NCBI RefSeq assembly: GCF_003018115.1
Contig: NZ_CP027457.1
Length of the DNA: 64,000 bases
Direction: 5' to 3' (one strand)
Source of the DNA: Escherichia coli
GTDB taxonomy: Bacteria > Pseudomonadota > Gammaproteobacteria > Enterobacterales > Enterobacteriaceae
Shown: positions 55,836 through 55,882 of the stretch, one piece after another
Position numbering within the stretch: position 1 is the first letter of the stretch
Layout: every line of letters begins with the position of its first letter
The notes under the pieces: model-generated
Told to the model about the DNA's origin: nothing
The model's database searches: none
Seen by the model: only the letters and a program-made list of their open reading frames with translations
Made by a program: the position numbers and the translations under genes

Positions 55836-55882
55836 CAGCCCTGACATTGAGCAGCTTTTTTCGCTGCGTAGTGTCAGGGCTG
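55836..55882 (-). terminator. candidate malZ terminator (nested palindrome)
   Basis: 11-bp perfect arms cagccctgaca/tgtcagggctg enclosing an inner gcagc-ttttttc-gctgc hairpin, just downstream of the malZ stop, followed on the minus strand by a U-rich tail. Confidence 0.5.

What the first reader, a model, noticed from the sequence alone, without database searches (positions are those of the whole stretch)
55836..55882. Nested palindrome downstream of malZ, at the edge of the insertion
An 11-bp perfect outer stem (cagccctgaca/tgtcagggctg) encloses an inner gcagc-T7-gctgc hairpin. It probably serves as the malZ terminator, but it sits within 35-80 bp of the malZ stop, which is where the insertion junction must lie, so it could also be a remnant of the recombination or insertion site.
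Basis: seen in the sequence. Interest (0 to 1): 0.25.

Follow-up and report, generated by a model that had tools for sequence, protein, structure and literature searches.

The report
Terminator-like hairpin inside malZ–acpH islet
The palindrome after malZ is real and folds very stably, but it belongs to a 1.7-kb strain-variable insert carrying one orphan gene (found in about a fifth of E. coli) and most likely just stops or insulates malZ transcription, so it is ordinary and not a recombination scar.

Summary
The nested palindrome is at 55836-55882 as described. The only correction is that the inner loop is TTTTTTC, not T7. It is far beyond chance and is the most stable 60-nt fold in the 64-kb window.

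It is not backbone. In K-12 and 4295 of 5426 complete E. coli genomes, the malZ and acpH stop codons are 4 bp apart with no hairpin. The palindrome lies 19-32 bp inside a ~1.67-kb, 36% GC insert that 1126 genomes (21%) carry. It occurs once per genome, always at this site. The insert's only other content is a 473-493 aa E. coli/Shigella orphan gene (ECs_0454 in Sakai).

The insert has no target duplication, no terminal repeats and no recombinase. The palindrome matches no REP, attC, IS-end or Rfam family.

On the malZ-sense strand the hairpin (-29 kcal/mol) starts 33 nt after the stop. It is followed by AGUUUGUUAAAUAUUU and lies 106 nt upstream of the orphan gene.

Best reading (about 0.5): a non-canonical intrinsic terminator or 3'-end hairpin brought in with the islet, which now ends malZ transcripts and insulates the orphan gene. 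The U-tract is weak, there is no covariation signal and there are no RNA data, so function is inferred. Low interest.

The parts
55836..55882 (-). Nested palindrome / RNA hairpin. Outer 11-bp perfect stem (55836-55846 with 55872-55882), 4x4 internal loop on the malZ-sense strand, inner 5-bp stem (55851-55855 with 55863-55867), 7-nt loop (55856-55862).
   Evidence: Sequence. RNA fold -29.4 kcal/mol on the - strand and -34.7 on the + strand. Most stable fold in the window. Outer stem identical in 37 of 38 sampled sequences.
55820..55835 (-). U-rich tail directly 3' of the hairpin on the malZ-sense strand: AGUUUGUUAAAUAUUU (AAUUUGUU... in O157-type strains).
   Evidence: Sequence. 5 U in the first 8 nt. 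T-tail score is 1.2, against 4.6-4.7 for trpA t and lambda tR2. The + strand has no U run after the hairpin.
55883..55914 (-). 32-nt spacer between the malZ stop and the hairpin. It is insert-specific apart from a 7-nt microhomology (ATAAAAC, 55901-55907) with the empty-site junction.
   Evidence: Comparison with the K-12 empty site.
55915..57732 (-). malZ (maltodextrin glucosidase), the backbone gene whose transcripts run into the hairpin.
   Evidence: ORF list; RefSeq annotation of matching genomes.
55730..55835 (-). 106-nt region between the hairpin and the orphan gene start. It has a GGAG ribosome-binding site at 55737-55740 and, by eye only, an extended -10-like TGgTATTCT at 55787-55795.
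   Evidence: Sequence. The consensus promoter scan found no - strand promoter here, so a promoter is an inference.
54260..55729 (-). Orphan gene of the insert (489 aa here; ECs_0454 in O157:H7 Sakai), co-directional with malZ. It contains a 12-nt tandem repeat at 54804-54888.
   Evidence: No family hit in Pfam, PADLOC, NCBIfam, PHROGs or PDB. Only E. coli/Shigella relatives.
54240..55914 (.). The whole strain-variable insert (about 1.67 kb, GC about 36%) between the acpH stop (54237-54239) and the malZ stop (55915-55917).
   Evidence: Empty site in K-12, 2014C-3061 and PMV-1. 4295 genomes empty and 1126 occupied. GC profile.
53658..54239 (+). acpH, the convergent backbone gene on the other side of the insert. 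Its stop is 20 nt from the orphan gene's stop.

Best explanation
The palindrome is the DNA template of a strong RNA hairpin that arrived as part of the ECs_0454 islet. It probably came in as the upstream terminator plus 5' flank of the orphan gene in its unknown donor. The islet sits between the convergent genes malZ and acpH. Read on the malZ-sense (-) strand, the hairpin forms 33 nt after the malZ stop and is followed by a moderately U-rich tract. It most likely acts as a non-canonical, probably partial, intrinsic terminator. It may also define and protect the malZ mRNA 3' end. In that way it would insulate the AT-rich orphan gene 106 nt downstream from malZ read-through. Shown: the structure is present and strong; it belongs to the insert; it is single-copy; its orientation and position fit. 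Inferred: that it actually terminates or stabilises RNA, and that the orphan gene has its own promoter downstream of it.
For: The hairpin is real and exceptional. It lies in a co-directional intergenic gap, 33 nt after the malZ stop and 106 nt before the next start codon. A U-rich tail (5 U in 8) exists only on the malZ-sense side, so any terminator activity would be unidirectional in the malZ direction. Every one of 11 haplotypes keeps a stable hairpin of -24.7 to -30.0 kcal/mol; variation is concentrated in the apical loop homopolymer. Insert-free strains have no hairpin, and K-12 malZ and acpH transcripts are reported to overlap as a convergent excludon (PMC12288877 Table 1). That fits a terminator absent from the backbone and supplied only by the insert. 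The same 11-bp arms, with unrelated interiors, occur in three unrelated MAG contigs where each is followed at once or within two bases by a T run of five to eight. This shows only that such a stem suits terminators, not homology.
Against: The U-tract is weak and interrupted, and begins with AG or AA. The d'Aubenton-Carafa-style score is -35, against +25 to +30 for trpA t and lambda tR2. The same crude score also misses rrnB T1. The tool's terminator scan does not flag the site, because its model allows only an uninterrupted stem with a 3-8 nt loop. The hairpin is 47 nt with internal loops, longer than typical terminators. It is more stable on the opposite (+) strand, because three middle pairs there include two G.U wobbles. 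There is no covariation support: 16 of 20 pairs never vary. No RNA 3'-end data were found.
Confidence: 0.5

Rival explanations
1. Non-terminating 3'-end hairpin or leaky attenuator. Transcription ends elsewhere (Rho-dependent or read-through). The hairpin then only blocks 3' exonucleases, defining a stable malZ 3' end, or it partially attenuates read-through so that orphan-gene expression is coupled to malZ transcription.
For: Strong stem with a poor U-tract. No consensus promoter was found between the hairpin and the orphan gene, which would make the gene depend on read-through. From established knowledge, Rho-dependent transcripts in E. coli are commonly trimmed back to stable stem-loops.
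Against: The evidence is no more direct than for termination. An extended -10-like motif and a good ribosome-binding site exist downstream of the hairpin. The spacer is not C-rich, so it does not look like a rut site.
Confidence: 0.2
2. Functionless passenger. The hairpin is a relic of the donor genome, for example the terminator of a lost upstream gene, kept only because the islet is young relative to mutation and nothing selects against it.
For: No covariation. Sampled divergence is too low to show constraint: about 1.9 variable sites are expected in 22 stem positions and 0-1 are observed. One metagenome haplotype (L023) carries an uncompensated stem mismatch.
Against: Islet diversity is similar to that of the flanking core genes (ORF p = 0.039, intergenic 0.024, malZ 0.024, acpH 0.030). 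The islet is therefore old, yet the outer stem is intact in 37 of 38 sequences. A -29 kcal/mol hairpin in a transcribed 3' region will affect RNA whatever its origin.
Confidence: 0.17
3. Palindromic protein-binding site (operator) that controls the orphan gene or malZ.
For: Perfect 11-bp inverted arms lie 107-153 bp upstream of the orphan gene's start codon.
Against: The arms are 25 bp apart (36 bp centre to centre) and enclose a second hairpin, which is unusual geometry for a dimeric operator. The islet encodes no regulator. By eye there is no match to CRP, LexA or MalT boxes. The arm sequence occurs nowhere else in the window or genome.
Confidence: 0.05
4. Recombination or insertion site remnant: an attC-like, IS-end-like or Xer-like hairpin that mediated insertion of the islet.
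For: The hairpin lies near one end of a compact one-gene insert. A GTTAAAT heptamer (matching GTTRRRY) lies just 3' of the hairpin on the - strand.
Against: The junction is 19-32 bp away from the hairpin. There is no partner inverse core site, no second hairpin at the other end, no target duplication and no terminal inverted repeat. No integrase or transposase lies in the insert or the flanking 6 kb. There is one copy per genome and always one locus. It is absent from plasmids, phages and viral contigs. For an attC the hairpin is on the wrong side of the ORF (5', not 3'). A GTTRRRY match is expected by chance at a few percent in such a span.
Confidence: 0.04

Closest known systems
Rho-independent (intrinsic) transcription terminators of E. 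coli
   Same: GC-rich stem-loop just downstream of a stop codon on the sense strand, followed by a U-containing tract, between co-directional genes.
   Different: The hairpin is 47 nt with a nested inner hairpin and internal loops. The U-tract is short and interrupted (AGUUUGUU), so it fails canonical scores. No experimental 3' end is available.
Protective 3' stem-loops of Rho-dependent or processed transcripts, and REP/BIME elements as mRNA stabilisers
   Same: A stable extragenic palindrome in a 3' UTR that could block 3'-5' exonucleases.
   Different: REP/BIME are multi-copy families with a consensus sequence. This element occurs once per genome, only inside the islet, and shows no sequence similarity to anything else.
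Integron attC sites and IS200/IS605-type subterminal hairpins (hairpin recombination sites)
   Same: An imperfect nested palindrome near one end of a small one-gene insert.
   Different: No R''/R' core pair, wrong side of the ORF, not at the junction, no recombinase, no second copy and no mobility signal.
Convergent excludon malZ-acpH of K-12 (PMC12288877)
   Same: The same two backbone genes. This explains why the backbone has no terminator of its own.
   Different: In islet-bearing strains the two genes are separated by 1.67 kb and a hairpin, and the convergent neighbour of acpH becomes the orphan gene, with stops 20 nt apart.

Membership tests
Intrinsic terminator | Stable GC-rich stem-loop | tested here: met
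   -29.4 kcal/mol on the malZ-sense strand; 7 of 11 outer pairs are G-C; z = -3.5 to -5.6.
Intrinsic terminator | Run of about 7-9 U immediately 3' of the stem | tested here: inconclusive
   The tail AGUUUGUUAAAUAUUU has 5 U in the first 8, which meets the scan tool's tail rule. The T-score of 1.2 and d = -35 fail the classical discriminant.
Intrinsic terminator | Sense-strand position shortly after a stop codon | tested here: met
   Starts 33 nt after the malZ stop, on the same strand.
Intrinsic terminator | Mapped RNA 3' end or measured termination | not testable with these tools
   No Term-seq or 3'-end data could be retrieved.
REP/BIME or other extragenic repeat families | Many dispersed copies per genome sharing a consensus | tested here: not met
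   Exactly one copy in each of 1126 genomes and none in the other 4300. No second copy in the window.
Integron attC | Paired core sites RYYYAAC / GTTRRRY flanking the palindrome, at the 3' end of a cassette, next to an integron integrase or array | tested here: not met
   Only a single GTTAAAT is present, with no inverse core. The palindrome is 5' of the ORF and not at the insert boundary. The neighbours are core genes.
IS200/IS605-type or other transposon ends | Transposase gene, hairpins at both ends, multiple or variable insertion sites | tested here: not met
   There is one ORF with no family hit, no hairpin partner at the left end, and a single fixed locus.
Any Rfam RNA family | Covariance-model match | tested here: not met
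   The only hit is a chance-level match at E = 9.4.
   K-12, 2014C-3061 and PMV-1 have 4 bp between the malZ and acpH stops. 4295 genomes have this contiguous junction.

The most novel reading that the evidence does not exclude
The hairpin could be a cis-acting site of the islet itself. It might be the recognition hairpin of a one-gene element whose orphan protein, or a host enzyme, placed it precisely between two convergent stop codons. It might instead be a site bound by the fast-evolving orphan protein. A milder version is that the islet's hairpin naturally dissolves the malZ-acpH excludon in a fifth of E. coli, giving a natural on/off experiment for excludon function.
Probability: 0.04. 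Interest if true: 0.5.

Novelty: new member of a known kind. Interest (0 to 1): 0.12.

Why it matters
It matters little by itself. It is an unannotated, probably terminator-type hairpin in an accessory islet. Two modest points make it worth recording. First, it shows how a horizontally acquired gene can bring its own transcriptional punctuation into a spot where the backbone has none: malZ and acpH stops are 4 bp apart and their transcripts overlap in K-12. About 21% of E. coli, including O157:H7, may therefore have a different malZ 3' end and lack the malZ-acpH transcript overlap. Second, it flags ECs_0454 as a long, intact, fast-evolving gene restricted to E. coli and Shigella, with a variable tetrapeptide repeat and no detectable relatives.

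Tried and rejected
- **Rfam:** a scan of 53500-56500 found nothing.
- **Terminator and promoter scan:** it did not flag the hairpin, because the nested stem falls outside its model, and it found no - strand promoter.
- **Orphan protein, family searches:** Pfam, PADLOC, NCBIfam, PHROGs and PDB sequence searches gave no hits.
- **Orphan protein, homologue searches:** the word-indexed search returned only E. coli/Shigella proteins of 89% identity or more. The search of 1.84 billion representatives returned only the E. coli cluster and its fragments. A peptide scan of GTDB species representatives found no relative. tblastn found nothing in phages; the only two 'plasmid' hits are 4.9-Mb records, so mislabelled chromosomes.
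- **AlphaFold2 model:** built from a shallow alignment, it reached pLDDT 35 and was unusable, so no fold search was run.
- **Arm-pattern search of genome contigs:** three unrelated MAG hairpins, which is convergence rather than homology. Viral contigs gave none.
- **Covariation:** analysis of 11 haplotypes from 38 sequences was uninformative.
- **Antisense ORF:** the 111-aa + strand ORF at 55494-55829, ending 7 nt before the palindrome, is rejected as a gene because it is interrupted in O157.
- **Literature:** searches for ECs0454 or Z0502 and for EHEC Term-seq supplements gave no data.
- **UMN026 lookup:** the accession is not in the collection, so phylogroup distribution was not established.
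- **Binding sites:** CRP, LexA and MalT-box readings of the arms were rejected by eye.

Full report
**Observation.**
- The sequence at 55836-55882 reads CAGCCCTGACA-TTGA-GCAGC-TTTTTTC-GCTGC-GTAG-TGTCAGGGCTG.
- The 11-bp outer arms are perfectly complementary, and a 5-bp inner stem encloses a 7-nt loop.
- malZ is the 605-aa ORF at 55915-57732 on the - strand. The palindrome therefore starts 33 nt downstream of its stop.
- Chance does not explain it. The window holds 4 perfect inverted repeats of 11 bp or more with a 3-40 nt spacer, against 0.44 expected.
- No shuffle folds as well, either as DNA (z = -5.6) or as RNA with flanks (z = -3.5).
- Among all 60-nt windows on both strands it is the most stable fold on the + strand (-37.0 kcal/mol; mean -12.8, sd 4.7) and the fourth most stable locus on the - strand (-31.2). 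This is despite its 36-37% GC surroundings.

**Backbone or insert.**
- In K-12 MG1655 the malZ and acpH stop codons are separated by 4 bp (AACG). The same holds in strain 2014C-3061 and, with GACG, in the B2 strain PMV-1.
- In the window, acpH ends at 54239 and malZ at 55915. The 1675 bp between them are absent from those strains.
- Alignment places the last unambiguous backbone base at 54232/54233 on the left and the first at 55915 on the right. K-12's intervening TTATAAAACG shares AAACGT with the left end (54239) and ATAAAAC with the right end (55901-55907).
- acpH's last codon and stop also differ (CTC TGA against TTA TAA).
- The palindrome therefore lies 19-32 bp inside strain-specific DNA, not at the junction.
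- No target-site duplication, terminal inverted repeat or partner hairpin at the other end was found.

**Population picture.**
- Of 5426 complete E. coli genomes, 4295 have the contiguous malZ-acpH junction and 1126 carry the insert at full length.
- The palindrome is present in exactly those 1126 genomes, once per genome and never on a plasmid.
- One O55:H7 strain has a secondary deletion that fuses the orphan gene and malZ as pseudogenes.
- No other cargo was seen at this site.
- Diversity of the insert (ORF p = 0.039, upstream intergenic 0.024) is similar to that of malZ (0.024) and acpH (0.030) in the same strains. This is an old presence/absence polymorphism, not a recent insertion.

**Content of the insert.**
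- The only gene is a 489-aa ORF at 54260-55729 (-), co-directional with malZ. It is annotated as a hypothetical protein and is ECs_0454 in Sakai.
- It has no hit in Pfam, PADLOC, NCBIfam, PHROGs or PDB sequences.
- It has no relatives outside E. coli/Shigella. This holds for a word-indexed search, a full HMMER scan of 1.84 billion representatives and a scan of GTDB species representatives.
- It does not occur in phages or true plasmids.
- Its dN/dS is 0.66, against 0.05 for malZ and 0.03 for acpH.
- A 12-nt tandem repeat (54804-54888) changes copy number between strains, giving CDS lengths of 1422-1470 nt.
- An AlphaFold2 model was unusable (pLDDT 35).
- No integrase or transposase lies in or near the insert.

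**What the palindrome most likely does.**
- On the malZ-sense strand the RNA reads: stop codon, 32 nt, hairpin (-29.4 kcal/mol), AGUUUGUUAAAUAUUU, then 106 nt to a GGAG ribosome-binding site and the orphan gene's ATG.
- On the opposite strand the hairpin is even stronger (-34.7), because three middle positions pair through U.G, U-A and G.U. It is followed there by GUGACUACGACG, with no U run.
- Any terminator activity would therefore be unidirectional, in the malZ direction.
- The U-tract is weak. The T-tail score is 1.2, against about 4.6 for trpA t and lambda tR2, and the classical discriminant is negative (-35). My crude implementation also misses rrnB T1.
- The scan tool cannot see the site, because it models only uninterrupted stems with 3-8 nt loops.
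- All 11 haplotypes found in 38 sequences (9 genome loci, Sakai and 28 metagenome contigs) keep a hairpin of -24.7 to -30.0 kcal/mol. Variation is concentrated in the loop homopolymer (T5-T7, with or without G).
- The outer stem is invariant except for one uncompensated G-to-T change in a single metagenome contig.
- Sixteen of 20 pairs never vary, so there is no covariation evidence either way.
- K-12's malZ-acpH pair is listed among convergent excludons with overlapping transcripts (PMC12288877, Table 1). This fits a backbone with no terminator between the genes and an islet that supplies one.
- I therefore favour a non-canonical intrinsic terminator or 3'-end hairpin that insulates the orphan gene from malZ read-through (confidence about 0.5).
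- The closest rivals are a non-terminating stabiliser or leaky attenuator (0.2) and a functionless passenger from the donor (0.17).

**Rejected readings.**
- REP/BIME or any dispersed repeat: there is a single copy per genome.
- Rfam families: none match.
- attC: there is only a lone GTTAAAT, no inverse core, the wrong side of the ORF, a position away from the boundary, and no integron context.
- IS-type end hairpin: there is no transposase, no second end and one fixed locus.
- Operator: the arms are 36 bp centre to centre around a second hairpin, no regulator is encoded, and no known box is visible.
- The 111-aa + strand ORF ending 7 nt before the palindrome is interrupted in O157 and is not a gene.
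- The identical 11-bp arms occur in two Prevotellaceae MAGs and one Oscillospiraceae MAG. The interiors are unrelated and a T run of five to eight follows at once or within two bases. These are independent terminators, not relatives.

**Verdict.**
- The recombination-remnant alternative has no support.
- This is an ordinary, previously unannotated terminator-like hairpin that belongs to an accessory one-gene islet.
- The orphan gene is the more curious object. Interest is low.

Noticed in passing
window 54260-55729 (-): The insert's only gene (ECs_0454 in Sakai) is a long, intact orphan. It has no family, PDB or structure-model signal, and relatives only in E. coli/Shigella even among 1.84 billion representatives. 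Its dN/dS is 0.66, against 0.03-0.05 for its neighbours.
   Followed up: partly
window 54804-54888: A 12-nt tandem repeat (about 7 copies, encoding AEKT/AKKT-like tetrapeptides) inside the orphan gene varies in copy number between strains. Proteins range from 473 to 493 aa and CDS from 1422 to 1470 nt.
   Followed up: partly
window 54233-54244 and 55901-55914: The insert junctions are fuzzy. K-12's 10-nt TTATAAAACG shares AAACGT with the left end and ATAAAAC with the right end. acpH's last codon and stop differ between occupied and empty alleles (CTC TGA against TTA TAA). There is no clean target duplication.
   Followed up: yes
window 53658-54239 / 55915-57732 (backbone): malZ-acpH is listed as a convergent excludon with overlapping transcripts in K-12 (PMC12288877). 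In islet-bearing strains acpH instead converges on the orphan gene, with stops 20 nt apart.
   Followed up: partly
window 32314-32361: An 18-bp perfect inverted repeat (TATCCCTTAATTGTGCAT, 12-nt spacer) lies just upstream of the panE-like ORF that starts at 32404. It is unannotated and is core: present in 5424 of 5426 E. coli genomes, almost all at 99% identity or more.
   Followed up: partly
window 39864-41435 (+): A second low-GC stretch (31-38% GC) holds a 523-aa ORF with pentapeptide repeats.
   Followed up: partly
L011 (NZ_CP039837.1, O55:H7 USDA5905) 2521-4261: A strain-specific deletion removes most of the islet, the palindrome and the malZ 3' end. It leaves fused pseudogenes.
   Followed up: yes
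L012 2098-2139; L013 866-912; L014 8638-8684: The same 11-bp arms (CAGCCCTGACA/TGTCAGGGCTG) occur in Oscillospiraceae and Prevotellaceae MAG contigs. Interiors are unrelated and a T run of five to eight follows at once or within two bases. These are convergent terminator hairpins.
   Followed up: yes
window 55494-55829 (+): A 111-aa ORF antisense to the orphan gene's 5' end stops 7 nt before the palindrome. It carries an internal stop in O157 and is probably not a gene.
   Followed up: yes
window 55847-55850 / 55868-55871: The middle of the hairpin pairs only on the + strand (U.G, U-A, G.U), which makes the antisense-to-malZ RNA the more stable version (-34.7 against -29.4). At 55850/55868 two rare haplotypes turn the A.G mismatch into T.G and then T-A. 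The significance is unknown.
   Followed up: partly
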